Positions 20,501 through 34,632 of a DNA stretch of 64,000 nucleotides are shown in pieces. The position numbers and the translations under genes are program-made. A model generated the notes under the pieces. The model searched no databases. It saw nothing but the letters and a program-made list of their open reading frames with translations, and was not told the DNA's origin. How positions within the stretch are numbered: the stretch's first letter is position 1; every line of letters starts with the position of its first letter. This stretch comes from Candidatus Omnitrophota bacterium (GTDB taxonomy: Bacteria; Omnitrophota; Gorgyraeia; Zapsychrales; Zapsychraceae), in NCBI GenBank assembly GCA_035292445.1, contig DATDQB010000013.1, positions 82,132-146,131 of the forward strand. The letters run 5' to 3'.

Positions 20501-23500
20501 GTCCTTCGTCAAAATCAACAAAGATAGGCACGTAGAAATCAACCGGTCTAACAAGAGAACGTTGTTCAGGCGTCATTTGGGCCCTGGCGATCTCCTGATA
20601 AATGGCATGCCATGTATTTAGCTTTGAGATCCTGGCAGCCAGTATACCCAAATAATCATATTGGTCCCGGGCACGGTCTCCTTTGCCTCTGAGCATTTGT
20701 GCATCCCATCCACCCAGATAATAGCCTTCAATATGCTTAAACAAATTCTGTTGCAGAAGAGCGAATATAATGCCGGATCTTTCTTTGAAAGCGTCATCGA
20801 TCCTTTCGTAATATTCCTGCTTTACATTCTCCATCATGGAGAACGAATCCTGAATAACACCCGTTTCAGCATCGATGAAGCCTAATGATGCTAAATGATT
20901 ATACAGGGCATCAACTTCATAATCATAAGCCACATCTAATAATTTTGTCTTTGTGATAGGTTCGGCTTGAAGAATTTCGGATACAGCCATGGCTTCGGCC
21001 ATCAATTCATTGCTAGGGCCGAAGGTATCGATGGATTTTACATCCCTGAAATACCTTCGCAGCTTGCCATTAAATTTCTCGGCCATATGGTTGGCGATCG
21101 ACCATGTTCTTAAAACAGGGCCTTGCGCAGCCGCGACTTTTTCTGCGCTCCAAACACGCTTGATCCAGCGGCCTTCGGCTCTTTGCTGGTTCCATCGCTC
21201 CTGCATGATTTGCGCTCGTTCTTCTAAAGAAGCCACCATCGCCGCATCGCCGCCCATGCGGGCAACCATGCCGCCTTCAGGTCCGGGTATATTCATCTGG
21301 GCAACTAACGCTTCATATCGCGCCAACACTTCAGGGCTAAGCGCCCCTGTGAAACGCTCTTTCCCCACCTCGATCATAGCCCACACGTCTCTTAATCGGC
21401 TTGAAACTGTCCCTTTCACATCTCCAAAGGTCGGCACCTCGTTATAGCGTTCTTCAGGATCTCTGGAACGGGCCCATTCCTCATCATTCTTGTCTTTTAT
21501 TTTTTCCCATCTTTTAATTAATCCCGCCAATTCATCTGGAAGTCTGGCAAGTTGCTCGATAGCCGATTTTCTATCCACACGATTGAGCTTATCGACACTC
21601 ACCTCTTTGCCTAAAAGAGCCGCTAAAAACGCTAATTCTTTCTCAGCCCTATCAAGATCCGCTTCTACTTGCGCTTCATACATCCCGCCTGGAAGCGCTC
21701 TGTCATATTGCGCTTTAAATCCTGCGACGCTCTGTAATAACCAATTAAAATACTCCTCGGCAACGGCCCTAGCATCCACCGCCATCGCCGCGTCACCTTC
21801 TTTGGGAGTTCCCTTCTGATCTCTCTCCCTCAATGACGCTATTATACCTCTCATATGTTTTTCAGAAGCAGCGGGTTCTTCCGGTACTAACTCACCACTT
21901 AAAGGATCTCCCCTGACAAACCTGGGTCCAAGTTCCGGCGCCCTATCTTTATCGCTGGCCGCCATCGCCGCGGCTGAAGTTAGTGAAGTTATCCTTTCCC
22001 GTATCTCTCGAATGGCCAGTTCGGTTTGTTCCTTTTCACCTTCCAGCCCCTCGACAATGACGACCTGATCTTGATATTCCACTAATTCATTTCCAATTTG
22101 TCCTAAACGCTTTTCCAGTTCTGCGATGGCACCTCGAAGCTCATCCGCCGTTCGGTATCCTTCCTCGCTGGTAAGAACGGCTTCTAAAATCCTGACCGCC
22201 CCCATCGCATTATCAATGCTGTCATCCCATTGCGCTCTTGTCCGATCAATTGTTTCCTCAAGCACTCTTTCCTCTTCCAATAAAGACGGTAAATCACCAA
22301 TGTCTCCATCTTCATATTTTGCTTTTTCTATTCTTTCTCTAACTTGAGCAAGTCGATCAATCGCGCGAAACCATTCTTTTTGGGCAGACTCATCCCCCAC
22401 CATCGCCGCGTCGATTGGTTCTTGAGAAGTCCCGCCTCTTTTTCCAAGGTGACCCATTTTTTTACGTTGAGTAAAAAGTATATCCCCTGCCGCGGCGTCA
22501 ACGGCCCGAAACATATTATCAAATGTTTCCCCATAAGCTAATTCGGCGATACGATGAGGATCCATCCGTAATTTATCCAATCTTTCAAATCCAACACTGT
22601 CCAAATTTTGTAGAATACTCGATTCAGGATAGTAGCTTCTTCTTCGCGAGTCATCGAAATCGGCTATTTTACTCAAAATATAACTGTTAGAAGCCTCTTC
22701 ACTTTGTAATCGATCTCTGAATCGGTATAAGACCCTCCTTCGCTCTGGCTCCATTAAACTTAAATAATCTAACGCCCTTGTAACTTTATCTCTTAACTGT
22801 AAATCATCAAACTGGGAAACAAAACGTTTTGCATTCTTCGGAAATTGATTACTAATACGCATAGCCCGAAAGTCTAGGGAAATCATACCTTCAATGACCG
22901 AATAGTCCTCAATCCTATCCAAAAGGATCCGTGTTGAGAAATAATCAGACAGGATCATAGCTTCAAAGATATCGGCATCCCTGTATCTTTCTGTTACCGC
23001 CATCGCCGCGTCGGTTTCCGCCACAGAGACAACCGTCTTTTCAACAAGTCTTTCTAAAGTCTCCGTAACTTCTTTAATTTTGCGTTGCAGGGGTCCTATT
23101 TTATCTTGATCATAAGCGGCAAGGGTTCTGAAGCTCAAAACGTCACCGGAACTGCGAGGTATTAAGATTCGGTAAAAGGTCTGAATCGCTTCTTGGGCTG
23201 TCGTTAAAGGTACATTTTGACCGCCTGAATCTCGAATGGCCCTTTGAAGCGTTTGAATCATCTCCAACAACCCAACCCCTTCTTCTCTGATTCTAGCGTC
23301 TTCAAAAGCTACTACCATTTCTTTAAGTTCTTCCAATTGCGCCGCCACCATCGCCGCGTCACCTTCTTTGGGAGTTCCCTTCTGATCTCTCTCCCTCAAT
23401 GACGCTATCATGTCTGTCATATGTTCTATAGAAGCAGGTTCTTCAGGTACTATCTCACCAGTTAAAGAATCTCTCCTGGCAACCCTGGGCCCCAATTCCG

Positions 23501-26500
23501 GCGCCCTGTCATCTGACTTTCCAGCCGCCATCGCCGTGTCGATATAATTCCCATCACGTAGCGCATTGGCTATTTTTTCAAGCTGCTCTTCAATAATTGA
23601 ATTTGACGCCTCCTCGCCTTGAGGATTAAAAGGAGCATACCCCGCAGCAACCGTTTGTAATCTTTCTTGCAAATTCAAAAGTTCTGCTCTCGTCAACACG
23701 CCGCTTTCCACTCGAATCTCTTCTTCCGGCGTCAACATCGCCGCATCGGCAAGCTGGAACGGAGCAAATAAAATTCGCCGATCATACAGGTTGTCCGCAT
23801 TATCGTGGATAGCAAAAAATCGTTTCAACTTTCTTTTTACATCAATTAATGTTCTGTCATCAAGGGTTGTGTTAAAAACAATGGATTCATGAAGCACCAT
23901 ATTCTTTGAAGTGATAATGCTTTTATTGATTTCTCTGGCAATGGCGATATCTTCATCGCTAAATCCCGATTCCATATATCTGGCCTGGGTATTTCTAGCG
24001 ACTTCATCCATAATTTGGCTTAAATATTCCCATGTAATGATTGTGCCTGTATCTGGGCCTTCCTGCACCTTGGCCCCCGATTTAATCAACGTCCACAGCC
24101 AATATTGGGCTTTCTTGGCCGTAGCTAAATCAAACATGGTTCTTCCGCCATTATGCAAGTTGTCTACGGCAACAGCCGCTCCTTGTTTTCGATAACCTAG
24201 CGTATATGTCAGCAGTTCATATAAGTTCTTATATATTTCAGCTCTCGCTATATTTCCCTCTGGAACATGTAATAAATCGGCATATAACCCTTCATTATAA
24301 ACAGGCGGCGCCACTTCCATTTCTTCAACATCGGCTCGGAAGATTTCGTTTTCTTTGGGAATGGCGATTGGTGTCGCTGCCCAAGCTTGAAGTTTGCCTT
24401 GTTTGCGTTCATCTATTTTGTCACCTATAAATCCTGTGGTAGCTATTTCATCCGCGGCCGGGTCCATCGGCGCTCCATCTGGATATCTGCGTGAGGTCAT
24501 TCCCGTCCACATGCCGCCTTCAGGATGAACACCGCGTTTTTTACTGGCCGATAAATTAAGGCCTGTATAAGGTCTAAACGGTTTGTCTTTCATGCCTATT
24601 TTATCCAATCCCGGCCATACGCGTTTCTTCAAAAACCAAGCGAGTCGTATCGCTGAAGCACCCCAATCCCAACGTCCATCATTCGAAAACTTGATATGAT
24701 GGCGGCCTGCCCAGAACATTAATTCCAGCATTAATGTCGCCTCTTCGACTTCATGCATAAAAATAAGATTGATCTCTTCTTTAAGACCTAAAAACTCCTT
24801 TGTTTCAATGGCCGTCTCCACAAACAATTTTACTTCTTCCCAATGCTCCAATTTCGGCACAACAATATCAATGCCTTGTCTCGGATCGGCTTCTAAAGCC
24901 TCGAAATTAGGTTCAACATAATACGCCAAGTCTCTCATCATCATTGATACCGGCATACCCTTATAGGATTCATGCCGTGACCACAATTGCAATCCGCTTG
25001 GCCTTTTTGTTACTGTCGGCCAATATTTCCTGGGTAATACTCTATAAATTTTATTTTTGTCTCCATGTTTTACGCTCTTGAGTCTTCCGTTAATAATATC
25101 GGCACCGATTTGGTGTTCGGCAAACCTTTTGTCACTATCTATTCCAGCGGCATCTTCATCGTCACCAAAGATTCTTACAGGTCTCATCGCTTCTATATAT
25201 TCAGCTATCGCTGGATTACCCTCAATAATTGCTATGATTTCTTCATCAGTTTTTTCCTTTAAACTTATTCCAAACTTCTTTTCCACTTCATCCAATACAT
25301 TTGACCCAAACGCACTCAAGGCAAAAAATAGATTCCATGGACCTGACAATATGCCGCCTGCTTTTGTTAACCTTTCTGGCGCTTCGTCGACTTTCCAATC
25401 CCCTTCTAATATTTCACGCACGGTCAAAGTATTTCCATACGCATCGCTCACCTTATCATCCATATTAGGAATATAAGAATTTTCTCCGCGCTCAGCCGCG
25501 TTTATTCTTTCCCCGCGTTTCTTTAATAACTCGAGCTGCCGCTCGCCGAACTTCTCCATTAAATGCGCTATTAATGCCTGGCTTCGCGGATTTATGATTT
25601 TTCCACTTCCGACATCTCCTTCAAATTCGCTTAAATCTACGGCCTGTCCTTTTTGATCCAACACCTCTCTAATATCTAAATCCTCTACGCCCGCCACCAT
25701 CGCCGCATCGCTGGTCGTCAGCAGCCGGATGTGATCAGGCTTATCTGAATAGTCATCGAATAGTAATGCCTCATTGCGGATGAACGGAACAATATAGGCG
25801 TGAGACGATTGGAACTGCACTTTCGGTTTAACGAGCATGATCTGGCCTTGATTCGCGGGGACATCTTCCCGGCGGAACACGGGCAGCTTATCAAAGTCAG
25901 GATGGACAACAATTCTTGATGCCAGAGAGCGCGCGACCCTTTCAATGATATCCTGGTATCCTTTTAAACGTTTATAGTCATCCGATATGGTTGGTATCCT
26001 GCCCAGAACAACATCTAATATGCTCCAGTAAATTTGATAATCAATAAGGTCTTGAGCTTCTCTGTAAACGGAATTAAACCTACCATTGACTTGACTGATG
26101 GCAGAGTGAACTCTTCGACGGACTATGGTAATGGTATTTAAATGGCCTTCCGTAATGGGAGTGATCCCGTGGCGTTCCGCCACCTCCAATAACTCCTTTA
26201 GATCATCCGCATTCGGCGGTTCTTCTCGCCATATTTCCGGCCTGCGCGCAAGACGCTGCTGGCGCTCAGCATCCGTTGCGGTGGACGGATCTGTAATGAC
26301 CGCCTGGTCGGCCAACCGGCTGCTAGCCTCATCGACCGCCAATTGGGCGCTGTCACCGGCAATTGTTTCTAATAAATCAACATCCGTATCAAAAAAACGG
26401 CCCGTGGGGGAAGAAGCATTGATAACCTGCTGTTGGACAGCCTCAGGAAATTGGCCTAAATCGCCTTCTATTTCGGCTACCAACATCGCCATGTCCCTGC

Positions 26501-27587
26501 CATCAACGCCCCCTGAGAAATATTTACGCGGGATGATGTCTTTTGTCGCCGGGTCATAGTCTTCCCTAATAAAGTTATAGACGCCTTTCTTGAAGGCATC
26601 GAGGTATTGCTCATAGATCTTATTCTTGGCGTCCTTATCTTCAATATCAATGCCGCGGATCTTGTTTTTGTCCACGTAAACCTGGCCTAAAAGAGAATTT
26701 TTCAGGTTCATCTTGTACCACGTCGCCAAGATCATGGAACTGTAGATCTGGCGTAAACTGGCAAACGTCTTGCCTTCATTGACTTCCTTTTCGATCTCGG
26801 GGATAACAACATCCTTAAGAATCTGGGATTGGATGGAGCTCATTTCAGTCGTCAGTCGTCGGTCGTCAGTCGTCAGTAACTGATGACTGACGTCTGATGT
26901 CTGATGACTTAATGCCAAATAGTCTTCCTCCAGCATGACCTTCAAATGGCTTTCAACGACAAAAGCGGTGCCGTTATTTTCATACACCAGCGCGCGGTCA
27001 GGGACGATCCATACCTTATTAAAGGTATTCATCGGGATGTTGGTCGTGCCGAATTTCTCGTAGGCCTTATCTTTGACGCGTTGCCAGAATTCTTTGCCCA
27101 GCTCCTGATCGGGGTGGATCAAAGACGCCGTCAATTGTTTGAGGATATAATCCTGCGCTAAAAGGTCGCGGCCCATTTCGGTCGTACCAAAAGCTTGGGG
27201 AATGATACGGTCTTTCTCATAAGGGGAAAGATTTACCCAGAGTTCTTTTTCGGGAACGGTCAGGGAAGCCAAGAAGTATTTAACTAATCTATTCGCTTCT
27301 TCGCGAAGCTCTTCGCCCTCGAGGCTCGTATGGCCAGTATCAACAATAAAATTAAAATGTAGGGGATTAACGGGATCGATCGTGATGCCTTTGACCATGG
27401 CCGGCATAAAGCCAGGGCTTGGGGAAACCATCACCCCCGGAGCCGGTAAATTAAGATATGTGGGTACGCCTTGGGCGTAAACGGATGCAGGCGGCGTGAC
27501 AGAGCTAAAGATAAAGGTAAAGGCGATAAAAGCGGATAAACCTTTGTGGAATCGGGTATTTCTTCTTCGCTCGAGAAAGCTTATCAT
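14589..27587 (-). CDS. Giant multi-module secreted protein, paralog C (4332 aa): signal peptide, conserved N-module, unknown modules, malate synthase-like module, repeated linker modules, isocitrate lyase module, unknown and coiled-coil region, class I fructose-bisphosphate aldolase module, possible GlpX-like module, conserved C-module.
   Basis: A 13 kb uninterrupted ORF with AGGGGGA upstream of the ATG at 27587 and signal peptide MISFLERRRNTRFHKGLSAFIAFTFIFSSVTPPASVYAQ. Malate synthase motif: HHIKFSNDGRWDWGASAIRLAW. ICL signature: HIEDQAHGCKMCGHMSGKVL plus LIVARTDAESAEWITG and YYLGGWDAQ. Class I FBA motifs: GRGRNYFASDGSPSTG, LKGSAIKVSMVTSGD (Schiff-base Lys context) and IVFLSGGQTADQAARNLNAIVKEAKRVGAPWRYAASFSRA. 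The C-terminus is VGGIDLNPALLNLQIKRDGRGIPLP...GFIPVIINIAPINNMPMLLGI. Confidence 0.85.
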   Translation of the reverse strand: MISFLERRRNTRFHKGLSAFIAFTFIFSSVTPPASVYAQGVPTYLNLPAPGVMVSPSPGFMPAMVKGITIDPVNPLHFNFIVDTGHTSLEGEELREEANRLVKYFLASLTVPEKELWVNLSPYEKDRIIPQAFGTTEMGRDLLAQDYILKQLTASLIHPDQELGKEFWQRVKDKAYEKFGTTNIPMNTFNKVWIVPDRALVYENNGTAFVVESHLKVMLEEDYLALSHQTSDVSHQLLTTDDRRLTTEMSSIQSQILKDVVIPEIEKEVNEGKTFASLRQIYSSMILATWYKMNLKNSLLGQVYVDKNKIRGIDIEDKDAKNKIYEQYLDAFKKGVYNFIREDYDPATKDIIPRKYFSGGVDGRDMAMLVAEIEGDLGQFPEAVQQQVINASSPTGRFFDTDVDLLETIAGDSAQLAVDEASSRLADQAVITDPSTATDAERQQRLARRPEIWREEPPNADDLKELLEVAERHGITPITEGHLNTITIVRRRVHSAISQVNGRFNSVYREAQDLIDYQIYWSILDVVLGRIPTISDDYKRLKGYQDIIERVARSLASRIVVHPDFDKLPVFRREDVPANQGQIMLVKPKVQFQSSHAYIVPFIRNEALLFDDYSDKPDHIRLLTTSDAAMVAGVEDLDIREVLDQKGQAVDLSEFEGDVGSGKIINPRSQALIAHLMEKFGERQLELLKKRGERINAAERGENSYIPNMDDKVSDAYGNTLTVREILEGDWKVDEAPERLTKAGGILSGPWNLFFALSAFGSNVLDEVEKKFGISLKEKTDEEIIAIIEGNPAIAEYIEAMRPVRIFGDDEDAAGIDSDKRFAEHQIGADIINGRLKSVKHGDKNKIYRVLPRKYWPTVTKRPSGLQLWSRHESYKGMPVSMMMRDLAYYVEPNFEALEADPRQGIDIVVPKLEHWEEVKLFVETAIETKEFLGLKEEINLIFMHEVEEATLMLELMFWAGRHHIKFSNDGRWDWGASAIRLAWFLKKRVWPGLDKIGMKDKPFRPYTGLNLSASKKRGVHPEGGMWTGMTSRRYPDGAPMDPAADEIATTGFIGDKIDERKQGKLQAWAATPIAIPKENEIFRADVEEMEVAPPVYNEGLYADLLHVPEGNIARAEIYKNLYELLTYTLGYRKQGAAVAVDNLHNGGRTMFDLATAKKAQYWLWTLIKSGAKVQEGPDTGTIITWEYLSQIMDEVARNTQARYMESGFSDEDIAIAREINKSIITSKNMVLHESIVFNTTLDDRTLIDVKRKLKRFFAIHDNADNLYDRRILFAPFQLADAAMLTPEEEIRVESGVLTRAELLNLQERLQTVAAGYAPFNPQGEEASNSIIEEQLEKIANALRDGNYIDTAMAAGKSDDRAPELGPRVARRDSLTGEIVPEEPASIEHMTDMIASLRERDQKGTPKEGDAAMVAAQLEELKEMVVAFEDARIREEGVGLLEMIQTLQRAIRDSGGQNVPLTTAQEAIQTFYRILIPRSSGDVLSFRTLAAYDQDKIGPLQRKIKEVTETLERLVEKTVVSVAETDAAMAVTERYRDADIFEAMILSDYFSTRILLDRIEDYSVIEGMISLDFRAMRISNQFPKNAKRFVSQFDDLQLRDKVTRALDYLSLMEPERRRVLYRFRDRLQSEEASNSYILSKIADFDDSRRRSYYPESSILQNLDSVGFERLDKLRMDPHRIAELAYGETFDNMFRAVDAAAGDILFTQRKKMGHLGKRGGTSQEPIDAAMVGDESAQKEWFRAIDRLAQVRERIEKAKYEDGDIGDLPSLLEEERVLEETIDRTRAQWDDSIDNAMGAVRILEAVLTSEEGYRTADELRGAIAELEKRLGQIGNELVEYQDQVVIVEGLEGEKEQTELAIREIRERITSLTSAAAMAASDKDRAPELGPRFVRGDPLSGELVPEEPAASEKHMRGIIASLRERDQKGTPKEGDAAMAVDARAVAEEYFNWLLQSVAGFKAQYDRALPGGMYEAQVEADLDRAEKELAFLAALLGKEVSVDKLNRVDRKSAIEQLARLPDELAGLIKRWEKIKDKNDEEWARSRDPEERYNEVPTFGDVKGTVSSRLRDVWAMIEVGKERFTGALSPEVLARYEALVAQMNIPGPEGGMVARMGGDAAMVASLEERAQIMQERWNQQRAEGRWIKRVWSAEKVAAAQGPVLRTWSIANHMAEKFNGKLRRYFRDVKSIDTFGPSNELMAEAMAVSEILQAEPITKTKLLDVAYDYEVDALYNHLASLGFIDAETGVIQDSFSMMENVKQEYYERIDDAFKERSGIIFALLQQNLFKHIEGYYLGGWDAQMLRGKGDRARDQYDYLGILAARISKLNTWHAIYQEIARAQMTPEQRSLVRPVDFYVPIFVDFDEGHLKVQEMARRVLSMGEEETHIAAVHIEDQAHGCKMCGHMSGKVLDSTDHWIKTLLEARFEFDRMGLNTLIVARTDAESAEWITGHDDGRDQKFILGVTEADEAERLEEAVKALEKDLVAKKMPAEKIAATITRFRSDWQKYIPLIHDSKGRVQTYQDVITAANQSGLEASELQKVHNQWKIMANLLTIDEIVARTIAANQDKIGMTVEEWRAFVAAIPYERDVRFFDLVKAKAREIGIRLIDSSQIQLVDEAPEAFSGTINVLWDFQLTRSVEKRSRTIWMINSGMEMAIARSKSALPYTDISWFEQHHPHIGEVKQWSTALDAEARRLLFAEGWYDEILERFDQAFRDRIKTQVEKIIETYHNNRPVDPDSYSYALKALQELDLAHDDAVGLLDATTRIKANNTSPSFYWPLAKTEDGSRLMTPEERKAFLPEQGKYSQFNFITYGGSTFLHAATMQFLQGTDGKGGYLRDGMDGLAQWQEIGRKQKSGMSINPQVFAGNRGLEFMTSVAIGETAAISFEGGKGDTMKDRAGLKAKDDLMGEIHRQIAEKETALQHDLSVNELADLINKLRISLIGVRTRITQLRTRERSLKDGPEERSSIAQQIAQLTTDRHTIEGLLKRAISRIRPLEGADEVAFPLEDVSLDHIEERFAAPETFYPEPAQDIENELYILRAGQRAILLEIGQLSDELGSSELNEKRARINRLIGQGEQLLSGDSAMMAADRILEDLLAGRIMVKDAYDRLLSLGESSEDDVIALIVNSGLGLGLLQVMDEINRDPNPVGTVVDGEQEEVDDLDTGATQVLPPRPISEYPPEDEDHAMLTDVQKTLLRERVQSLTGRGRNYFASDGSPSTGNALLKRYGFKIVDAKAYPDADKVDGANYLLRERMRRMFYTAPGIQYVFGGIIVQDESVSYVDDEDKPLLATHVEGRGISIIHKTDRGIDDDTQSPRPSREGLDPEKLSKPKGLGIDNLRAIMDMIPTSHADKFRQTFTIDTDAGLPTQRNIEANMEMLAQHVLDVQLLGRVPTPEPEVLIKGSHDIEASAEANRRILKVYTEAASRLGVDLKGSAIKVSMVTSGDKAPKDTPEEVARATVAVHMDSLPPELGTIVFLSGGQTADQAARNLNAIVKEAKRVGAPWRYAASFSRASKETALTVLNGDFVNEQAAQNEFVRASFRIQAASLGVMDEYDALIERIGVEAFVARVDVYGRMVQVNIDNEQLGQMIRDFDAAMAAQPNKEEATRLRAIRDELPVILTTHTAAKLTALGLRGAYQKILDVVKSVSDTSEQRTQIALLFTQLHQTTQRGEFAEVAIMVLGKEGTIAKDELKRMQTAITDVVDGFAKRIFERTIKELGIIMMVRVSEGFGRDEVAESLKSNEVIMPNLIQHEVEAIKAAIDRGDEFYLSENGRYYPILDAIIDVVEGTNQFVTNSGNRSLEEAPENEAGANSDIVVGRGVRDLGNVPDGYVHQFITNVGEDADALRAAAVEVGGEKYHLYDPELYAAHPKEGILAYLKFLAAIRRQELSQVQEEIIVMNRKRETAFVRAIEEVKQEYGIQGVSVVQKTLQDGTVAHGLRATLTPALYEAATGRSYGVHKTVITVGGSAEGFMNLAIAGAAKYIGAVAGVRVYNAKMNKNAAGEELPDLSERYNFKLAEASELRVIRESYGDAGAILNGQKFFTEQDVKGDVVGIFTVIANDWVFGQTGTQATEGGQTSVVIKIYNVGNELKAEIFPVEVDHTIVSIDAAMTEQGDGAMLTPAEAWEIAEDLLEEMGDEELFGDRVGLLARLIHYLDGKELSTPLSEDAPDLYSKGDLTRATHINSARDFKVREIKFRRIIREFLEGQLIVNFPSEEEDVSSSAGIDRAVTAQETTPVGGIDLNPALLNLQIKRDGRGIPLPVEMQPLQNIHIDGFIPVIINIAPINNMPMLLGIADFIPDEPIEQAQDEEEKAPALSMRKFTLRDVLDRIAIFKG
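21780..21985 (-). repeat. Internal ~200-nt direct repeat within giant gene C, copy 1; the other copy is at 23340..23550 (~88% identical). Each encodes a duplicated ~65-aa linker segment.
   Basis: CCATCGCCGCGTCACCTTCTTTGGGAGTTCCCTTCTGATCTCTCTCCCTCAATGACGCTAT... occurs at both loci. The protein copies are AAMAASDKDRAPELGPRFVRGDPLSGELVPEEPAASEKHMRGIIASLRERDQKGTPKEGDAAMAVD and TAMAAGKSDDRAPELGPRVARRDSLTGEIVPEEPASIEHMTDMIASLRERDQKGTPKEGDAAMVAA. Confidence 0.8.
26845..26925 (-). repeat. Hairpin-forming short tandem repeat (TCAGTCGTCAG/CTGATGTCTGATG units) inside the N-module of gene C; a homologous insertion sits at 4050..4125 in gene A.
   Basis: Gene C has CAGTCGTCAGTCGTCGGTCGTCAGTCGTCAGTAACTGATGACTGACGTCTGATGTCTGATGACT. 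Gene A has GTCATCAGTCGTCGGTCATCAGTCGTCAG...CTGAAGACTGATGTCTGATGTCTGATGACTGAT. Both are imperfect inverted repeats built from 8-11-nt units. They encode SDVSHQLLTTDDRRLTTEMSS and SDISLQSTHENLTTDDRRLMTQ, which are absent from paralogs B and D at the same position. Confidence 0.7.
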
Positions 27588-27899
27588 TTTTTATTCCCCC
27601 TAAGATTTAAAAATTGTTCCCGCAATTGTATTTTCATCGTTACCAGTGATTTGAACCATCGAAAGCGTTTTCCCGCATCAGTTTAAAAAATGGCCGCACA
27701 AAATAAAGGACCGTGCAACCAAACAAGCGAAGGCACACGAAAAGCCTCAATGCTCGTCGAGAATTAAAAATAAACTGTGATATTAGGAAAACAACTTTTC
27801 AGGAGGACATTTACATCGGGTCAGATCGACCCCCGTGGCAGGATAAATAAACGTCTCTCAACAACTCTTATTGTTGCCACAAATATAACACAACAAAAT

Positions 27900-30800
27900 T
27901 TACCTGTCAAGCCCTAATTCTTGCTGCATGTTCAGATCGCGTTCCACCCGCGTGATCACCGGCTCAAAGCCACCAAGGTTTAAATTTTCAATGGTGGAGG
28001 CTGCAATCGTCATTTGGACGCCGTTCCCCTCCCGCTGAACGACCAAATTCAACATAGCCATATTCAAATCAATACCACCCCTACTATCCCTGTTACCCGT
28101 ATCAAGCTGGGCCATGCCGCGCCCTATAACCTGAGCCATATTAGAAATTAGCCTCTGCTCTCTGATACGAGCCAATGAATCGGCAGAGATATTCGGTCTT
28201 TGCTGTAATACTGATAACAACCTTTCTTCTCCCCCATCAAAGGCTTGGGGATTATTTCTAGCTAAATCGCCAAAAGCGGTCACGATAGGTTCAAAATCAA
28301 TCGATTGAATACCACTGGCACTCATAACTTGTTCAGCCATGGGTCTAAAGACATCTTGGAAGACTTGGGGATTGGCTATATTTTGCGGCATCAATCTTAA
28401 GAGGGTATCCGACTGCTGCCTCGCGCTGGAAACCTCTCCAAATTGCCGAACCACAAAAGCGTTCGAAGCCTTTTCCGCGGTTTCAGGAGCGGCTCCTACT
28501 TCACGTAGGCCTGCTTGAAATTCGCTTAACGAACGTAGCGCTGCTGGATTTCTTTCGGCTAGTTGCGCAACCTGGCCGGGCAATGCCTGGATTTCCTCAG
28601 ATGTAAATCGAAGACCGAATTGAGACACCTCTGGCGCCCGTAAAGAGTCCCTATAATCATCTTCAAAGGCCTGCCCCATAGCCGCCTCTACAACAACACG
28701 GGCAAGTGTAGGGTTATAGCTCATCCGATCCCCAGCAGAAGAGGATTCAGCAACCGCCTGGTAAATCCGCCCAGACAGCCCTTCGCTATTATCTATAACA
28801 ATACCTGCCATTCTTTGGGCAAGCGGCTCAGCCACGTTCAAACTCCGTAATTCGGTCAAATAAGTGCTTCTTAAGCCATCGCGGTCTCCCAAGAGCTCAG
28901 GCTTGGCAAGGACATTCACTAATGCCTGCGCCGCCGGCTGGGCTTCCGATGGGTTAAGAGGGGTTGTCCGATTAAGCGCCTCGGCTACATTAATAACATT
29001 CGTTCGTTGATCTCCAACCAACGCAAATCGCGTCGAAGAACTGGCCAAATGGCTATCAACACCTTTGAATTCCTCCGCTTGCCCGGCCAAATTATTAATC
29101 CGGTCAATAACTTCTTTGGTAGCGACCCGGCTCGCCAAATTACGGACAGAATCTTCAGGCATCTGCGGCTGCGCGATCCTTAAGCCTTCGGTTATTTTTT
29201 GCTCGAGTTGATCCAATGACCCATATTCGCGTAAATTTTGCATTACAGGTGTAACAGCTGCAATTTCATCTTCATTAAAATTATCCGTCTGCAAAGCGGA
29301 CGTCACAATGCTTTGCATACGCGGCTGATTGACGGCGTAAAGAACAGGCATAACGGATATTTGCATATTGAATTGATAACGGCCCTGGGTTTGGTCGGCC
29401 ACTTCGCGCATGGTATCCAAATCCGAGGCAATTCTTGCGGCAGTAACAGCCGTCGGCCGGTCGATGCCCTCCCTTTCCAAGCCAGCGGTAATGGCCGCTT
29501 CGTATTGAATAGGCGTTGAGAAAGCTTCCGGTGATTGCGTCCTAAGGCGTGTTATGACTTGAGCTGTTGTTGCCGCTACAGATCGGGCTTGGGCAGGTTC
29601 GATTTCTCCTTCTCCTATTAATCTATTCGCTACGCTCGCGCTATACGCATTGCCGGCTAATTGTTGATTGGCAGCAATACCGCTGGCGACATCAACTAAT
29701 ACCGGCTGAGGCGTTGAGCGTTCAAAAACCGTTTGGGCTAAAGATGGCAGGCTCTTTTCGACCGTAGGGAGTGTTTGTTGGGAGATCCCTCGAGAGCTTA
29801 AAACACTCATAATCTCTTGAGTGGTACTTCGCGGCGCCCGGCGTAACGTGTCCCCCACTATACCCACCACTAAACTAATTTCTTCCTGCGGCACTCCTTG
29901 CTGCCCTAAAGAACGCCCAAGCTCGGCATTAAAAGAAGGAGCGTTTGTCCTAAGAACGGCAGCCATATTAGGCAAAGTGATGCCCATGTCTTGTGCGGCG
30001 TTTGGTTCCCGGTTTCCCAAGGCGAAAGAGACTCTTGCAACCCTTTCAGGGTTAGTCGTGGCTCTTTCCAACAGCCTATTGACCGAAGTCATCATAGCCT
30101 CATCAAGGCCGGCTTGGGCCAAGGGTACTTCTGCGGAAACCTGCGTTGTCCCTGCCCGAACGACTTGAGCCGCTCGATCCCCCGCAAAACCTCCCGAATA
30201 ATACCGCTTCGGCACCAAAGAAAATGTCTCCAAATCAAATTCTTTTGTCGTATACTCATAAGCTCCCTGCTGGAATGTCTCCAGATATTTATCAAAAATC
30301 TTTTCTTTAACCGCCCTGTCTTGTGTGTCTACGCCTTCAATTTTATTCTTATCGACATACACTTGGCTTAAAAAACTCTCTTTCAAATTTTGTTTATACC
30401 ACGTTGCCAGAATCATGGCATTGTAAATCTGCCTTAAATTGGCGAAATTCTCCCCTTCATTGACTTCTTTTTCAATTTCCGGAACAATGACTTCCCTGAC
30501 AACATTACTGGCAATAGCATTGATCTTCTTGACGTCATCTTCCTGCATCCGGTCCGTGCCGAATTTCTTATTATCCATATTTTCCTTTAATCCCAAATAA
30601 TCTTCCTCTAGCATCACTTTTAAATGGCTGTCCAAAACAATGGCGTTGTTACCTCTTTCTAAAACAACCGCTTGATCAGGGACAATCCAAATCTTGTTAA
30701 ATGTGTTCATCGGTATGTCAGAAGCGCCGTAGAGCTCGTTGGCTTTGCTTTGGACTTTTTGCCAGAACTCTTTTCCTAACTGATTTTCGGGATACATTAA

Positions 30801-31268
30801 AGATGCGGTGAGCTGCTTGAGAATATAATCCTGGGCTAAAAGGTCGCGCCCCATTTCTGTATACCCGAGATTTCTGGGAATAATCCGATCTTCTTCATAG
30901 GGAGAAAGATTAACCCATAACTCCTCTGAAGGAACGGTAAGAGCTGCCAGAAAATATTTGACAAGCTTATCAGCCTCTTCTTTCAGGGCATCTCCATCAA
31001 TATTCACATCACCCGTATCGATAATAAAATCGAATTTTAATGCATCGTCGGAGTTGACGGTTATCGCCTTAATAAGAGGTGGCGTGAATATTGGACTTTG
31101 GGTAAGCAATGTCCCCGGCGTGGGTAGCTGCAGGGCGCTGGAACCGACGGTTTGAGCGGAACTAAGATAGGGAGTTAAAACAAGGTGGCAGGAGAAACAA
31201 AGCACTGTTAAACAGCTTAAAAATCGAAAGCCTGGTTTGCTTCTTTTTCTTCGGGATAAAACTTCCAT
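27900..31268 (-). CDS. Giant-family paralog D (1122 aa), the minimal member: signal peptide, conserved N-module, ~700-aa low-complexity Ala/Gln/Ser/Thr-rich region, conserved C-module.
   Basis: GAGGA/GGTGGA lies upstream of the ATG at 31268. Signal peptide: MEVLSRRKRSKPGFRFLSCLTVLCFSCHLVLTPYLSSAQ. The N-module shares TVPSEELWVNLSPYEEDRIIP, TEMGRDLLAQDYILKQLTASLMYPE and PEIEKEVNEGENFANLRQIYNAMILATWYK with the other paralogs. The C-terminus is GGIDLNMAMLNLVVQREGNGVQMT...GGFEPVITRVERDL. Confidence 0.8.
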   Translation of the reverse strand: MEVLSRRKRSKPGFRFLSCLTVLCFSCHLVLTPYLSSAQTVGSSALQLPTPGTLLTQSPIFTPPLIKAITVNSDDALKFDFIIDTGDVNIDGDALKEEADKLVKYFLAALTVPSEELWVNLSPYEEDRIIPRNLGYTEMGRDLLAQDYILKQLTASLMYPENQLGKEFWQKVQSKANELYGASDIPMNTFNKIWIVPDQAVVLERGNNAIVLDSHLKVMLEEDYLGLKENMDNKKFGTDRMQEDDVKKINAIASNVVREVIVPEIEKEVNEGENFANLRQIYNAMILATWYKQNLKESFLSQVYVDKNKIEGVDTQDRAVKEKIFDKYLETFQQGAYEYTTKEFDLETFSLVPKRYYSGGFAGDRAAQVVRAGTTQVSAEVPLAQAGLDEAMMTSVNRLLERATTNPERVARVSFALGNREPNAAQDMGITLPNMAAVLRTNAPSFNAELGRSLGQQGVPQEEISLVVGIVGDTLRRAPRSTTQEIMSVLSSRGISQQTLPTVEKSLPSLAQTVFERSTPQPVLVDVASGIAANQQLAGNAYSASVANRLIGEGEIEPAQARSVAATTAQVITRLRTQSPEAFSTPIQYEAAITAGLEREGIDRPTAVTAARIASDLDTMREVADQTQGRYQFNMQISVMPVLYAVNQPRMQSIVTSALQTDNFNEDEIAAVTPVMQNLREYGSLDQLEQKITEGLRIAQPQMPEDSVRNLASRVATKEVIDRINNLAGQAEEFKGVDSHLASSSTRFALVGDQRTNVINVAEALNRTTPLNPSEAQPAAQALVNVLAKPELLGDRDGLRSTYLTELRSLNVAEPLAQRMAGIVIDNSEGLSGRIYQAVAESSSAGDRMSYNPTLARVVVEAAMGQAFEDDYRDSLRAPEVSQFGLRFTSEEIQALPGQVAQLAERNPAALRSLSEFQAGLREVGAAPETAEKASNAFVVRQFGEVSSARQQSDTLLRLMPQNIANPQVFQDVFRPMAEQVMSASGIQSIDFEPIVTAFGDLARNNPQAFDGGEERLLSVLQQRPNISADSLARIREQRLISNMAQVIGRGMAQLDTGNRDSRGGIDLNMAMLNLVVQREGNGVQMTIAASTIENLNLGGFEPVITRVERDLNMQQELGLDR

Positions 31269-31440
31269 TCCACCAGTCCTCGTTTATAGAAAACAATTCT
31301 TTTTTCTGGGAGGATTCACAAGAACCTTATCGTGGCAATGATTTTCTATGGTGTAAATATAACATTATTAATAATTACTGTCAATGAGGCCATCAGAGGC
31401 GGCGCCATAGAAAGATCGAGGACGAATATTATTTAAATGG

Positions 31441-31514: not shown

Positions 31515-31605
31515 TTATATTTTTTGAATAGTGGCGCTTAGTATATCATTGGGTTTTGAAATTTGCAATTACTGTAAAATTACCCACTTATGCTATAATA
31601 CCGCC

Positions 31606-34600
31606 ATGCGAAAACGGATTATATTTATCTTATTGTCCCTGTTAATGTTAGGCACCATCGCCTTCTTCTACGTCCAAAACATCCTCATCCCCATTAAAGT
31701 AAAACAGTTTATCGAAGAAAAGGCCCAAGATTACTTAAAAAGAAAGATCGAAATCGCCGACATCCAATTCAAGCCCTTCCAGGGCTTTCGATTCATCAAT
31801 ATAAAGATCTATGAAAAAGACGCCCCTGAGACACTGTTTTTCTTCGCGGATGAAGTGCGTTTTCAGATCCTCTTCGCGGCCTTCTTTCAACATAAGACGT
31901 TGATCGTACCTTCCCTCCAGTTGGTCAAACCCACCCTGCATTTGACGCGCGATGAAACCGGCGCCTGGAACATCGCTGACCTTCTCAATCTTAAACAAGC
32001 CAAAGACGAGCGGATGGAGTACACCTTCTTCGTACGAAAATTCATCCTGGAGAAGGCAACCGCCGACTATGCCGATCACAGCAAGGATACAAAATTCTTT
32101 GAATCGTACGAAAACATTGATCTTGATGCGGCCATTTCTTTCGACCGCTCCATCCATTACGAAATAGCCGTTGACCTTCCCATAAGAAAGGCCCGCCTTA
32201 AATCAACAGGAACCATTGCCGCGGCAACCAAAAAGATATCTGCACAGCTGGCGCTTGATAATTTCCCGCTTTCCGATTACGTCAGTTTATTGACAAACGA
32301 CCAAAACCTCACCATGAAAGACACTTTTGTGACAACGCCCGATCTCACCATGAACTATCAAAACAATAGCCTGGACATCAAAGCAAGCCTTAAATTCCCC
32401 TCCTTCTTCCTTAAATATGCCGACGGACAGATCTCCGGCCCCTTTGATATTACCAACGCAAACTTTAAACATGAAAATAACGTACTGTATCTCTCGGGGA
32501 CCTTCAGCTCAGCGCAAGCTGTCTTCAAAAAATCCAATCTGTTTTTGTCCTCCCCCCTGTCATTAACGCTTAAAGCCTTAAGCTTGAAAAATAAAGAAAT
32601 AAAAATGTTGGCGGATTTGACCCTCAACAACGCCCAATTCTCGTGGTCGGAAAATAAATCCGTGCGCGGCCAGCTGATGATCCAGGACATCCGGCTCGAT
32701 AAAGCGCAAAGCAGCTCTCTCACGTGGCAGAAAGCGGTCTTGGAATCGGCTGAATTGATCTACGAAGACCGGTTAACTTTCAAGGGAAACCTTCTCATGG
32801 ATAAGCTCTCCTTGACCCATCAAAGCGATGACTTATCCATTGACGTACCTTTCCGTATTACAAAAGCGGATTGTGCGGTCGGCGAAGATAAGATCATCCA
32901 TTCCGACGTCTTGGCAAGAAAATTCCAGGGCCGCATCAAAGGCCGAAAATTGTACATCGATACCCTTGTTGACCTGCCCAACATGGAAATCCTCTTTGGC
33001 CAATTCCAGCGATTCCTCGGCAGCCCCAACATCGAGCTTCATACGATATTGGACCTTGGGCAAATAACGCCGCCTCTTTATAAAGGAAGCGTTACACTTA
33101 GCGATGTTTTGTTGGAAGGCATGAAGCCGGTCGGTGACATCACTCGGCTCACGGGAAAAGTATCTTTCGACAATGACGTCTTCTCCAGCGAGCAGCTGAG
33201 TTTCCGCGCCTTGGATAGCGATTTTCATGCTTCGGGCCAATGGTTCAATTCACAAAACCCAACAGCCGATATTCAACTTTCAACCGATAAAATTGATCTG
33301 TCACAACTGGCAAAGGTGTATCCGCCGCTAAAAGAAGATTATCAACTGATTCCTTCCGGGCCCGCTGCCATCGCCGCTAGTTATCAGGGACCTTTGTCTC
33401 CTTTCTCCGCAGGGTATCTTATGTTGGAATCACAATTGACAGGGGCCCATCTGGTATGGCAAAAGGGAAATAAAAAATTTTCCGACGTTTCAGGCCGGTT
33501 AACCCTTGGCAACGACCAGTTGATCTGGAAAAACCTCACCTTTGCCGTCGATGGCCAAACGTATAAAATGGAGGGCTCATTGAGCCGGCTGAAAACGCCT
33601 ATCATAGAAACCACCATTCAAAACGAACAGCTTGATGCCAAAACCATCCTTGCCTACATGGACCAAAGCTTTCGCGTTGATTCACTTAAGGGGCGGTATT
33701 TATCGTCAAGCTTTAATTTGAGCGGGGAATTCGGTTTCAATCGAAACGTCCGTTTGGAAGGAGACGGTGTTTTGAACCTGGAAGACCTGGCGGCATCACC
33801 GGGGCCGCTATCTCAACACATAAAAACGCTCCATCCGTTGGGCAGCCTGATGTGGAAAGGCTCATTCCTGGGCAATGCCGGTGATTGGAAAACCTCCGCA
33901 GTTAATGTGTCCGCTCAAACAAAGGCCATGAGATTATTCCATTACCCGATCGATAACGTAAACATCAATTTCAAACAAAAAAATCAATCCGTGCATGCGC
34001 TTTTAATGACGGCCAGCGTGTATGAGGGGCCGTTGAATATCGAGGCCAATATCGATCTCTCCAAAGACGGCGCGCCTTTCCAATCCACCACCAGCCTGGC
34101 GGACATGAACCTGACCGCTTATCGAAAGGATAAAAAGACAAAAAATGTGCATCTTTCCGGAAAATTGACGTGCGAATTCAATCTAAAAGGTGAACTGCTC
34201 GATCAGCCCAGCTACCAGGGAATAGGTTATTTCGCCATTACGGAAGCTTATCTGGGACAGCTTGTCCCACAGCTGAATGAAGCCATTTACACCGAGGCCA
34301 ACGCGGATTTTGTGATTAAGAACCGAAAAATAATCACCGAAAATGCCATGATCATTAGCAAAACCGTCGATCTTCTTGCCCAGGGATGGGTCGATTTTGA
34401 TAAAAATATCGACCTCGACATCACACCCGCCTTAAAACAAATCCAAAGAATCGATACCGGTTCCATCAAGATCGATCCCGCCACGTTTTTGACGCAGGCC
34501 GTCAGCCTTAAAATGACTGGAACTCTGGATAACCCAATCAAAAAAATCAACACCTCTGCCAGTAAGGTGTTCAAAAACACAACCGGTGTGATAAAGGAAG

Positions 34601-34632
34601 GGATTGGGAGTATTTTGGAGGAAATATTTTAG
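31606..34632 (+). CDS. AsmA-family outer-membrane biogenesis protein (TamB/YhdP-like): N-terminal TM anchor plus a long periplasmic beta-rich domain.
   Basis: The 1033-aa ORF at 31531..34632 likely starts at the internal ATG 31606 (MRKRIIFILLSLLMLGTIAFFYVQNILIPIK), because 31531 abuts tRNA-Pro. It has a single N-terminal TM helix, then the repetitive Ser/Thr/Asn/Gly-rich beta-strand pattern typical of the AsmA family. Confidence 0.6.
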   Translation: MRKRIIFILLSLLMLGTIAFFYVQNILIPIKVKQFIEEKAQDYLKRKIEIADIQFKPFQGFRFINIKIYEKDAPETLFFFADEVRFQILFAAFFQHKTLIVPSLQLVKPTLHLTRDETGAWNIADLLNLKQAKDERMEYTFFVRKFILEKATADYADHSKDTKFFESYENIDLDAAISFDRSIHYEIAVDLPIRKARLKSTGTIAAATKKISAQLALDNFPLSDYVSLLTNDQNLTMKDTFVTTPDLTMNYQNNSLDIKASLKFPSFFLKYADGQISGPFDITNANFKHENNVLYLSGTFSSAQAVFKKSNLFLSSPLSLTLKALSLKNKEIKMLADLTLNNAQFSWSENKSVRGQLMIQDIRLDKAQSSSLTWQKAVLESAELIYEDRLTFKGNLLMDKLSLTHQSDDLSIDVPFRITKADCAVGEDKIIHSDVLARKFQGRIKGRKLYIDTLVDLPNMEILFGQFQRFLGSPNIELHTILDLGQITPPLYKGSVTLSDVLLEGMKPVGDITRLTGKVSFDNDVFSSEQLSFRALDSDFHASGQWFNSQNPTADIQLSTDKIDLSQLAKVYPPLKEDYQLIPSGPAAIAASYQGPLSPFSAGYLMLESQLTGAHLVWQKGNKKFSDVSGRLTLGNDQLIWKNLTFAVDGQTYKMEGSLSRLKTPIIETTIQNEQLDAKTILAYMDQSFRVDSLKGRYLSSSFNLSGEFGFNRNVRLEGDGVLNLEDLAASPGPLSQHIKTLHPLGSLMWKGSFLGNAGDWKTSAVNVSAQTKAMRLFHYPIDNVNINFKQKNQSVHALLMTASVYEGPLNIEANIDLSKDGAPFQSTTSLADMNLTAYRKDKKTKNVHLSGKLTCEFNLKGELLDQPSYQGIGYFAITEAYLGQLVPQLNEAIYTEANADFVIKNRKIITENAMIISKTVDLLAQGWVDFDKNIDLDITPALKQIQRIDTGSIKIDPATFLTQAVSLKMTGTLDNPIKKINTSASKVFKNTTGVIKEGIGSILEEIF

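What the first reader, a model, noticed from the sequence alone, without database searches (positions are those of the whole stretch)
28090..30150. Gene D is a minimal family member: the N- and C-modules joined only by ~700 aa of low-complexity sequence
Between the conserved N-module and the GGIDLN tail, gene D has no recognisable enzyme. It is an Ala/Gln/Ser/Thr/Val/Leu-rich, weakly repetitive region (AAQ, SLAQ, NRL... themes) with two D-x-A-M-like sites (LDEAMM, VEAAMG). It shows that the shared N- and C-modules form an independent scaffold. It may be the ancestral or structural, stalk-like member.
Basis: seen in the sequence. Interest (0 to 1): 0.55.

Follow-up and report, generated by a model that had tools for sequence, protein, structure and literature searches.

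The report
Enzyme-free Omnitrophota protein with helical-bundle array
Gene D is an enzyme-free member of a large, undescribed Omnitrophota protein family, and its ~690-residue middle is not low-complexity filler but an orphan, all-helical region predicted to form about six small helix bundles in a row; it is not the family's minimal member.

Summary

Three other claims do not hold:
- It is not low-complexity. Its windowed entropy equals that of the folded parts.
- The short AAQ/SLAQ/NRL themes are at chance level.
- It is not disordered or coiled-coil by the simple measures I could run.

AlphaFold2 predicts it as all-alpha. It resolves four confident (pLDDT ~80-95) and two weaker blocks of about five helices each, spaced ~105 aa apart. 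Sequence similarity between these units is faint but beats the rotation controls.

The region is an orphan. Only itself is found among 5.8 billion proteins and 1.84 billion cluster representatives. A profile of the six units weakly detects one other protein with the same architecture (D2, 1175 aa). D2 carries an exact 102-aa tandem duplication.

D is not minimal: complete family members of 549-642 aa have spacers of only 120-234 aa.

Best reading: a Sec-exported, non-catalytic member whose passenger is a fast-evolving string of helix bundles acting as a spacer or binding platform. The function is inferred, not shown.

The parts
27900..31268 (-). Gene D, complete ORF, 1122 aa plus stop codon
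   Evidence: ORF list and translation. The identical protein P0001 is annotated as a hypothetical protein of a Candidatus Omnitrophota MAG. The same DNA is seen in three further assemblies.
31152..31268 (-). aa 1-39: basic N-terminus, the only hydrophobic segment, then SSA|QT. This looks like a Sec-type signal peptide; the cleavage site is inferred.
   Evidence: It is the only Kyte-Doolittle peak above 1.6 in D, and the same holds for A and C. An 'AQ' after the hydrophobic stretch is conserved in the family consensus. No signal-peptide predictor was available.
30189..31151 (-). aa 40-360: conserved N-module, ending in RYYSGG
   Evidence: 52-57% identity to A, B and C. At least 1304 relatives, nearly all labelled Omnitrophota/Omnitrophica. 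It scores 540 bits against a family HMM whose members score 563 +/- 20. AlphaFold2 gives a confident alpha/beta fold with no PDB match.
29982..30188 (-). aa 361-429: low-confidence extension and linker. It contains DRAA (aa 364-367) where B and C have D-x-A-M, DEAM at aa 389-392, and the strand-like RVSFALG.
   Evidence: pLDDT 25-47. The weak D/D2 alignment ends in NPERVARVSFALG / NPDKNFTVKFTLG.
29679..29981 (-). Helical unit 1 (aa 430-530; confident block 435-518, five helices)
   Evidence: pLDDT 83-95 in the full-length model, and 64-86 in the single-sequence model.
29349..29678 (-). Helical unit 2 (aa 531-640; confident block 536-625)
   Evidence: pLDDT 83-96. Also confident in the single-sequence model.
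29019..29348 (-). Helical unit 3 (aa 641-750; confident block 649-730)
   Evidence: pLDDT 79-92. Also confident in the single-sequence model.
28719..29018 (-). Helical unit 4 (aa 751-850; confident block 753-834)
   Evidence: pLDDT 66-91. A marginal BLAST match links aa 771-818 to gene B aa 4116-4163 (E 0.003).
28374..28718 (-). Helical unit 5 (aa 851-965). This is the weakest unit. It includes the low-confidence stretch 835-897 with VEAAMG (aa 860-865).
   Evidence: pLDDT 29-73. It is placed as a unit by spacing and by the in-register alignment only.
28089..28373 (-). Helical unit 6 (aa 966-1060). It begins with ANPQVFQD, shared with D2 (ANPQVFED).
   Evidence: pLDDT 64-82. U1 versus U6 is the only individually significant unit pair (z 3.8).
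27903..28088 (-). aa 1061-1122: GGIDLN tail, a divergent variant (GFEPVITRVERD...) that lacks the family's PvtnlPlLlG end
   Evidence: The tail HMM gives 47.7 bits for D against 106-117 for B and C, and the alignment stops at model position 68. AlphaFold2 predicts short strands with pLDDT 78-95.
31356..31384 (-). Promoter-like site TTGACA-17-TATATT (with TG) upstream of D. This is a consensus match only.
   Evidence: The same hexamer pair lies at 27910..27882, upstream of gene B.

Best explanation
Gene D is a non-catalytic member of a large, so far undescribed Omnitrophota protein family. The family layout is: signal-peptide-like N-terminus, a ~320-aa conserved N-module, a variable passenger, and a ~60-aa GGIDLN tail.

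In D the passenger is not a linker. It is a fast-evolving tandem array of about six all-helical units of ~100-105 residues, each with roughly five helices, joined by short flexible segments (beads on a string).

Shown or computed:
- the module boundaries;
- the absence of any known domain;
- normal sequence complexity;
- the all-helical prediction with periodic confident blocks;
- the orphan status of the region;
- the existence of shorter family members;
- a second protein with the same layout that carries a 102-aa unit duplication.

Inferred:
- The protein is exported through Sec.
- The array acts as a passive spacer or binding platform held between the two constant ends, rather than as an enzyme.
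- Such arrays grow by unit duplication and diverge quickly.
For: Boundaries and family:
- BLAST of D against A, B and C sets the module boundaries.
- The N-module has at least 1304 relatives.
- A tail profile finds 69 tails.
- D's N-module is intact at 540 bits, against 563 +/- 20 for family members.

No known domain.

Not low-complexity, disordered or coiled-coil:
- Windowed entropy equals that of the folded parts.
- The charge-hydropathy position is on the folded side in every 100-aa window.
- The longest Pro/Gly-free stretch is 24 aa.
- Hydrophobic periodicity is helix-like.

Structure prediction:
- Two independent AlphaFold2 runs give an all-helical region with the same confident blocks.
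- In the full-length run the blocks are at aa 435-518, 536-625, 649-730 and 753-834, with weaker blocks at 898-941 and 966-1052. Spacing is ~105 aa with about five helices each.

Unit similarity:
- The in-register alignment of the six units scores above 100 of 100 residue shuffles (z 3.7).
- It also scores above 80 of 80 independent circular rotations (z 2.9).

Second protein, D2 (L009 4598..8125, 1175 aa):
- It has an N-module, a 764-aa Ala/Val/Ser-rich middle and a tail with the same GFEPVI variant.
- The D-unit HMM scores 19.9 bits on its middle, against a maximum of 10.1 in 1000 shuffles. With one duplicate copy removed it scores 11.6 against a maximum of 10.4 in 2000 shuffles.
- D2 holds an exact tandem duplication with a period of 102 aa.
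Against: - Pairwise similarity between units is mostly not significant: mean z is 0.5, and only U1-U6 stands out.
- Off-diagonal self-matches and lag autocorrelation are within the range of shuffles.
- The column-wise score of the unit alignment is not above shuffles (z 0.4).
- The confident AlphaFold2 blocks rest on almost no alignment depth in this region, and AlphaFold2 can over-predict idealised helices.
- Units 5 and 6 are weakly predicted.
- D2's N-module is no closer to D (51% identity) than other family members are (56-59%), so a shared subfamily is not established.
- D-middle against D2-middle is no better than block-shuffled controls (z 0.2).
- Iteration of the unit profile recruits no further D2 units.
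- D2's duplication is 100% identical at the DNA level and could be an assembly artefact.
- Export is inferred from one hydrophobic segment only.
- No functional evidence exists.
Confidence: 0.5

Rival explanations
1. One reading: the middle is a low-complexity, largely disordered or coiled-coil linker or stalk that merely joins the N- and C-modules.
For: There is no known domain. The composition is biased, rich in A/Q/S/R and poor in K. The region is an orphan, as is typical of fast-evolving linkers. About 250 residues of D have pLDDT below 50, including aa 373-435 and 835-897.
Against: No window reaches low-complexity entropy. The region lies on the folded side of the charge-hydropathy boundary in every window, and the longest Pro/Gly-free stretch is 24 aa, which rules out a long coiled coil. 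Four blocks reach pLDDT 80-95 in two independent predictions.
Confidence: 0.12
2. D is a decaying paralogue. Its middle is the eroded remnant of former cargo, under relaxed selection, with no function of its own.
For: The region is an orphan. GC3 is low: 0.44-0.46 against 0.52-0.62 in housekeeping genes and 0.57-0.59 in the N-modules of B and C. The tail is degenerate. D has DRAA where B and C have D-x-A-M.
Against: A 3.4-kb ORF remains intact. The N-module keeps every family-invariant residue and scores within 1.2 sd of the family mean. The enzyme-bearing parts of B and C have the same low GC3, so low GC3 is not specific to D. A second lineage keeps the same architecture at similar length. 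There is no trace of any enzyme profile even at E = 10.
Confidence: 0.12
3. D is a scaffold in the manner of a cellulosome scaffoldin. Its repeated helix bundles would be docking sites for the enzyme-bearing paralogues A, B and C, for example for their D-x-A-M segments or their tails. This would assemble an exported multi-enzyme complex.
For: D is the first gene of a same-strand cluster D-B-C-A of family members. It has about six similar units and no catalytic domain. D-x-A-M is a strongly enriched, unexplained peptide motif in the paralogues: 15 sites against 0.79 expected in B.
Against: There is no direct evidence of any interaction. D2 stands alone, with no paralogue next to it. D and B each have their own promoter-like site. 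The units are far too divergent from each other to suggest one shared ligand.
Confidence: 0.1
4. The amphipathic helices form an apolipoprotein-like lipid-binding region that works with the neighbouring AsmA-like lipid-transfer proteins.
For: A divergently oriented AsmA/DUF748/YhdP-like gene lies at 31531..34632, and a second DUF748-like ORF at 13087..14058. The helices are amphipathic.
Against: There is no 11- or 22-residue proline punctuation. AlphaFold2 packs the helices into compact bundles. The D2 locus has no AsmA-like neighbour.
Confidence: 0.04

Closest known systems
Omnitrophota giant multi-domain proteins ('Archaeovorins'; West-Roberts et al. 2023, bioRxiv 10.1101/2023.11.21.568195)
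   Same: Same phylum. These are predicted exported or membrane-associated proteins that string together glycolytic-type enzyme domains (FBA, PGM/PMM, PPDK and others) with long helical-repeat regions. D's neighbours B, C and A carry such enzymes.
   Different: D has 1122 aa, not more than 10,000, and has no enzyme, HEAT or TPR match. I did not find the N-module / GGIDLN-tail frame in that paper, in the 2026 Omnitrophota preprint, or by a motif text search.
Tandem arrays of small helical-bundle domains used as spacers (spectrin repeats of ~106 aa; serum-albumin domains; cyclin-box pairs)
   Same: Repeat length is ~100-105 aa, the units are all-alpha and joined in a row, and sequence identity between units is low. 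Albumin and cyclin/TFIIB folds are the top, though non-significant, Foldseek neighbours. The spectrin repeat length is from my own knowledge.
   Different: There is no sequence or significant fold match. The predicted units have about five short helices, not three long ones. No homology is claimed.
[not shown]
   Different: Identity is 11-15%. These are nuclear or plastid nucleic-acid-related proteins. The topology match is generic for small bundles. Which D unit was matched is not reported.
Passenger-carrier architectures with constant ends and variable middles (autotransporters; T9SS or other C-terminal sorting domains; MARTX-type modular toxins)
   Same: A signal-peptide-like N-terminus, a constant N-terminal module, interchangeable passengers and a short constant C-terminal module, seen family-wide. 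The comparison systems are recalled from my own knowledge.
   Different: The tail is only ~60 aa, so it cannot form a beta-barrel. There is no Pfam or NCBIfam match to any sorting or translocator domain. No processing protease was identified.

Membership tests
Omnitrophota N-module / GGIDLN-tail family (uncharacterised; no Pfam or NCBIfam model) | Conserved ~320-aa N-module ending in (R/K)xYFSGG | tested here: met
   52-57% identity to A, B and C. 540 bits against a family HMM whose members score 563 +/- 20. All 33 invariant columns are kept.
Omnitrophota N-module / GGIDLN-tail family (uncharacterised; no Pfam or NCBIfam model) | N-terminal hydrophobic, signal-peptide-like segment followed by a conserved A-Q | tested here: met
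   A single hydrophobic peak at aa 13-31, followed by SSAQT. The family consensus is '...PPxxxxAQ'. No dedicated signal-peptide predictor was run.
Omnitrophota N-module / GGIDLN-tail family (uncharacterised; no Pfam or NCBIfam model) | C-terminal GGID(L/F)N ... GFxPVIINITPvtNLPlLLG tail | tested here: inconclusive
   The first two thirds of the tail are present (47.7 bits, E 2e-16). The hydrophobic PvtnlPlLlG end is missing; B and C score 106-117 bits.
Omnitrophota N-module / GGIDLN-tail family (uncharacterised; no Pfam or NCBIfam model) | D-x-A-M-(L/V/A) motifs punctuating the passenger region | tested here: inconclusive
   D has one site (DEAM at aa 389) against 0.14 expected. B has 15 against 0.79, C has 7 against 0.21, and D2 has none.
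Low-complexity / intrinsically disordered linker | Low local sequence entropy (SEG-type) | tested here: not met
   The minimum 12-aa window entropy is 2.28 bits, and no window falls below 2.2. The means equal those of the N-module and gene B.
Low-complexity / intrinsically disordered linker | Low hydropathy with high net charge, and uniformly low structure-prediction confidence | tested here: not met
   All 100-aa windows lie on the folded side of the Uversky boundary. Four blocks reach pLDDT 80-95. IUPred-type predictors were not available.
Coiled-coil stalk | Long uninterrupted helices (more than ~50 aa) with heptad periodicity | tested here: not met
   The longest Pro/Gly-free stretch is 24 aa. 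Predicted helices are 11-37 aa. No dedicated coiled-coil predictor was available.
Tandem helical-bundle repeat array | Periodic, structurally similar units | tested here: met
   Six blocks of about five helices spaced ~105 aa apart, with four of them reproduced in two AlphaFold2 runs. This is a prediction only.
Tandem helical-bundle repeat array | Detectable sequence relationship between units | tested here: inconclusive
   The in-register alignment beats 100 of 100 shuffles and 80 of 80 rotations. Against this, pairwise z averages 0.5, and the self-dot-plot and autocorrelation are not significant.
Tandem helical-bundle repeat array | Evidence of growth by unit duplication | tested here: met
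   Seen in D2, not in D. An exact duplication with a 102-aa period, aa 518-609 = 620-711, with DNA identity 276/276. An assembly artefact is not excluded.
Any known enzyme or Pfam/NCBIfam domain | Profile match at or near the curated threshold, or a significant fold match | tested here: not met
   (best is sCache_3_2 at 16 bits against a cut-off of 28). (best E 0.0034 and 0.024). (best Foldseek E 0.066 and 0.18).
Archaeovorin-type giant proteins | Length above ~10,000 aa with HEAT/TPR/glycosyltransferase domains | tested here: not met
   D has 1122 aa and none of these domains. The definition is taken from the paper.

The most novel reading that the evidence does not exclude
D-type proteins are the non-catalytic organiser of an exported multi-enzyme system unique to Omnitrophota. 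Each ~100-aa helix bundle would be a docking site for a D-x-A-M segment or a GGIDLN tail of the enzyme-bearing paralogues. A, B and C would then be assembled on D outside the cytoplasm, as an analogue of the cellulosome scaffoldin built from a new domain.
Probability: 0.07. Interest if true: 0.8.

Novelty: new variant of a known kind. Interest (0 to 1): 0.35.

Why it matters
The family around D has at least 1304 members and is confined to Omnitrophota. It combines a signal-peptide-like start and a conserved N-module with central-metabolism enzymes and a constant tail, and it has no name, no profile and no solved relative.

D and D2 show that the two constant ends are kept even when the passenger is purely helical and non-catalytic. 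This argues that the ends carry the family's common function, such as targeting, anchoring or assembly, and that the middle is freely exchangeable.

D is also a practical handle: it is the smallest protein in this locus in which to test where the N-module and tail send a passenger. On its own, however, an orphan helical array in a hypothetical protein is a modest finding. The stronger open questions concern the family as a whole: the D-x-A-M motif and the apparent export of cytoplasmic-type enzymes.

Tried and rejected
- Homologues of the middle. The word-indexed search of 5.8 billion proteins found only D itself. A full phmmer scan of 1.84 billion representatives found D plus P0122 (E 1.3e-4). 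P0122 is a 2072-aa Asp/Ser/Ala-rich tandem-repeat (cadherin-like) protein matched in 13 stretches, rejected as compositional.
- TALE repeat. The Hax3 hit (E 0.0034) was not supported by any repeat test.
- sCache_3_2. It scores 16 bits against a cut-off of 28. I rejected it because the region is predicted all-helical, whereas to my knowledge Cache domains are alpha/beta.
- A 38-aa 'L..L...G(I/V)s.e.A' helix-turn-helix motif that I picked out by eye. A four-seed HMM found only its own seeds, and the S/T-x-x-E feature is a generic helix N-cap.
- ClpB/ClpC aa ~162-224. These are the only hits of the unit profile in the PDB (E >= 0.024). They match at motif level only and were rejected.
- Synteny. 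A search with the AsmA-like neighbour in genome contigs returned three distant loci with no N-module gene.
- Polymorphism for dN/dS. The three other assemblies are 100% identical across gene D.
- D-type units in A, B, C or 105 other post-N regions. Only P0017, which is the start of D2, was found.
- Iterating the unit profile recruited no further D2 units.
- The afdb50 fold library was not available.
- Apolipoprotein-like 11/22-mer proline spacing was not seen.
Full report
**What is there.** The finding lies inside one ORF, window 27900..31268 on the minus strand, 1122 aa. The identical protein is on record as a hypothetical protein of a Candidatus Omnitrophota MAG (P0001). The same DNA occurs in three other assemblies. 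BLAST against the three same-strand neighbours gives 52-57% identity over aa ~7-370 and 38-40% over aa 1064-1120. The neighbours are B (14589..27587, 4332 aa), C (5097..12530, 2477 aa) and A (runs off the window start). Nothing significant matches in between. The coordinates are correct.

**Checking the observation: no known domain.**
- Pfam and NCBIfam find isocitrate lyase, malate synthase and class I aldolase in B.
- They find UDP-glucose pyrophosphorylase, phosphoglucomutase and two receiver domains in C.
- They find a methyltransferase and PPDK_N in A.
- They find nothing in D.
- Even at E = 10, and in sub-fragments, the best hit is sCache_3_2 at 16 bits against a cut-off of 28.
- PDB sequence searches are empty of significant hits.
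- So 'no recognisable enzyme' holds.

**Checking the observation: complexity, repeats and motif sites.**
- 'Low-complexity' does not hold. No 12-residue window falls below the 2.2-bit level, and mean windowed entropies equal those of the N-module and of B.
- The composition is biased: A 12.7, R 8.2, S 8.2, Q 7.9 %, with K only 0.9% and no W or C. It is not simple.
- The extra G+C of the region sits in codon positions 1 and 2 (0.60 and 0.46). GC3 is 0.46, so the bias is at the amino-acid level.
- The short themes are too few to mean anything: AAQ 3 times in D (2 in the middle), SLAQ once, NRL twice. The best off-diagonal self-matches are reached by 61 of 200 shuffles.
- Of the two 'D-x-A-M-like' sites, only DEAM (aa 389) fits the motif.
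- The motif itself is real in the family: 15 sites against 0.79 expected in B, 7 against 0.21 in C, and 32 against 1.5 in 105 other members. The reversed motif is not enriched.
- D has one site and is essentially unpunctuated.

**Folded or not.**
- Every 100-aa window lies on the folded side of the charge-hydropathy boundary.
- The longest stretch without Pro or Gly is 24 residues, which excludes a long coiled coil.
- Hydrophobicity has helix-like periodicity.
- AlphaFold2 on the middle alone, with no alignment, gives an all-helical model of ~34 helices, mean pLDDT 50, with four blocks at 64-90.
- AlphaFold2 on full-length D used an alignment covering the N-module (about 60-65 sequences deep) and the tail (8 sequences). 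That alignment has almost no coverage of the middle.
- This second run reproduces the same blocks at higher confidence: aa 435-518, 536-625, 649-730 and 753-834 at pLDDT ~80-95.
- Weaker blocks lie at 898-941 and 966-1052. Low-confidence linkers separate all the blocks.
- The blocks start about every 105 residues and contain about five helices each.

**Fold searches.**
- Foldseek finds nothing significant for either model.
- No enzyme fold appears, and the N-module itself has no structural match.

**Is the periodicity real at sequence level?** Only weakly.
- Pairwise unit comparisons average z 0.5, and only U1-U6 stands out at z 3.8.
- A lag profile peaks near 105 and ~325 but stays within the range of shuffles.
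- The multiple alignment of the six AlphaFold-defined units scores above all 100 residue shuffles (z 3.7).
- As a fairer control for helicity, it also scores above all 80 sets of independently rotated units (z 2.9) and above half-reversed sets.

**An independent line of evidence: D2.**
- An HMM of the six units picked out one protein among A, B, C and 105 family members: P0017, a contig-truncated 609-aa fragment.
- A metagenome scan recovered its full length (L009 4598..8125, 1175 aa, here called D2). It has an N-module, a 764-aa Ala/Val/Ser-rich middle, and a tail with the same unusual GFEPVI(T/S)xVE variant as D.
- The D-unit HMM scores 19.9 bits on D2's middle. Controls: maximum 10.1 in 1000 shuffles, 6.6 on the reversed sequence, at most 6.1 on block-reversed decoys.
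- With one duplicate copy removed, the score is 11.6 against a maximum of 10.4 in 2000 shuffles.
- D2 contains an exact tandem duplication, aa 518-609 = 620-711, with a period of 102 aa and DNA identity of 276/276. Two short-read assemblies break exactly at its edge.
- The period matches D's predicted unit spacing.

**Caveats on D2.**
- D-middle against D2-middle is no better than 25-aa block shuffles, so any similarity lies at the level of local segments and is not colinear.
- Profile iteration recruits nothing more.
- D2's N-module is not especially close to D's (51% identity).
- The duplication could be an assembly artefact.

**Orphan status.** The middle finds only itself among 5.8 billion clustered proteins. 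Among 1.84 billion representatives scanned exhaustively it finds itself plus one spurious hit to an Asp/Ser/Ala-rich tandem-repeat protein.

**Family context.**
- The N-module has at least 1304 relatives, almost all labelled Omnitrophota/Omnitrophica.
- A tail profile finds 69 tails.
- Passengers vary widely: NUDIX, ankyrin, phosphoglucose isomerase and others, and many have no Pfam match.
- Eight of the 120 listed relatives have both ends within 549-642 aa, with mutually unrelated spacers of 120-234 aa. D is therefore far from minimal.
- D's N-module is intact at 540 bits, against 563 +/- 20 for the family.
- D's tail is the aberrant one: 47.7 bits against 106-117, without the PvtnlPlLlG end.
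- Where B and C have D-x-A-M directly after SGG, D has DRAA.
- These points, together with growth by unit duplication in D2, argue for a derived form rather than an ancestral one.
- Each family protein has a single hydrophobic segment, at the N-terminus, followed by a conserved A-Q. This looks like a Sec signal peptide, but no predictor was available.

**Literature.** Preprints on Omnitrophota giant proteins report glycolytic-type enzyme domains and PPDK in predicted exported regions. I found no description of this N-module/tail frame, and a text search for the tail motif found nothing relevant.

**Interpretation.**
- Most likely (about 0.5 for the structural picture, less for the function): D is a non-catalytic family member. 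Its passenger is a fast-diverging string of about six ~100-residue helix bundles. This would be a spacer or binding platform held between the family's two constant ends and exported with them.
- Rival: a disordered linker (0.12).
- Rival: a decaying paralogue (0.12).
- Rival: a scaffoldin-like docking platform for A, B and C (0.10).
- Rival: a lipid-binding partner of the adjacent AsmA-like genes (0.04).
- What the N-module and tail do is unknown, and that limits any mechanism for D.

**Verdict.** The constant ends around a variable middle, and the absence of an enzyme, hold up. 'Minimal', 'low-complexity' and 'ancestral' do not. Interest is modest for D alone. The family-wide features are the more surprising part: the D-x-A-M motif, enzymes placed behind a signal peptide, and an N-module with no structural match.

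Noticed in passing
window 14589..27587 (B) and 5097..12530 (C), minus strand; also P0002-P0121: The peptide motif D-x-A-M-(L/V/A) is strongly enriched in the passenger parts. B has 15 sites against 0.79 expected, C has 7 against 0.21, and 105 other members have 32 against 1.5. The reversed motif is not enriched. It sits at domain borders, often within 80 aa after the N-module, and may be a processing or docking site.
   Followed up: partly
window ~5100..5130 (C-terminus of gene C); tails P0143, P0147, P0157, P0165, P0188: Many GGIDLN tails are followed by an acidic stretch and an extreme C-terminal motif '..EPE.(I/V)S.LN', for example KEPEKVSLLN in gene C. B and D lack it.
   Followed up: no
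window 31356..31384 and 27882..27910, minus strand: The same near-consensus promoter-like site, TTGACA-17-TATATT with an upstream TG, lies before gene D and, overlapping D's stop codon, before gene B.
   Followed up: no
window 31531..34632 (+) and 13087..14058 (+): Two AsmA/DUF748/YhdP-like ORFs on the opposite strand flank or interrupt the D-B-C-A cluster. A secretin gene (40049..41680) and an Rce1-like protease fused to TPR repeats (41727..43037) lie a few kb away.
   Followed up: no
window 14589..27587 (-), gene B aa ~1385-1413 and ~1907-1935: Gene B has a long-range internal duplication with a period of about 520 aa. Near-identical segments '...SLRERDQKGTPKEGDAAM' end at aa 1413 and 1935.
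   Followed up: no
window 30159..31268 versus 26472..27587 and 11415..12530: The GC3 of D's N-module (0.435) is much lower than that of the B and C N-modules (0.57-0.59) and of housekeeping genes (0.52-0.62). The passenger parts of B and C are also low, at 0.44.
   Followed up: no
L009 4598..8125 (+), aa 518-609 and 620-711: D2 carries an exact 92-aa repeat with a 102-aa period, identical at all 276 DNA positions. The NCBI and Logan contigs for the same gene end at the first copy.
   Followed up: yes
[not shown]
   Followed up: partly
window 1..4793 (-), gene A: Gene A, cut by the window start, carries an AprA MT2-like methyltransferase with its winged-helix domain, and a PPDK_N ATP-binding domain, behind the same N-module.
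   Followed up: no
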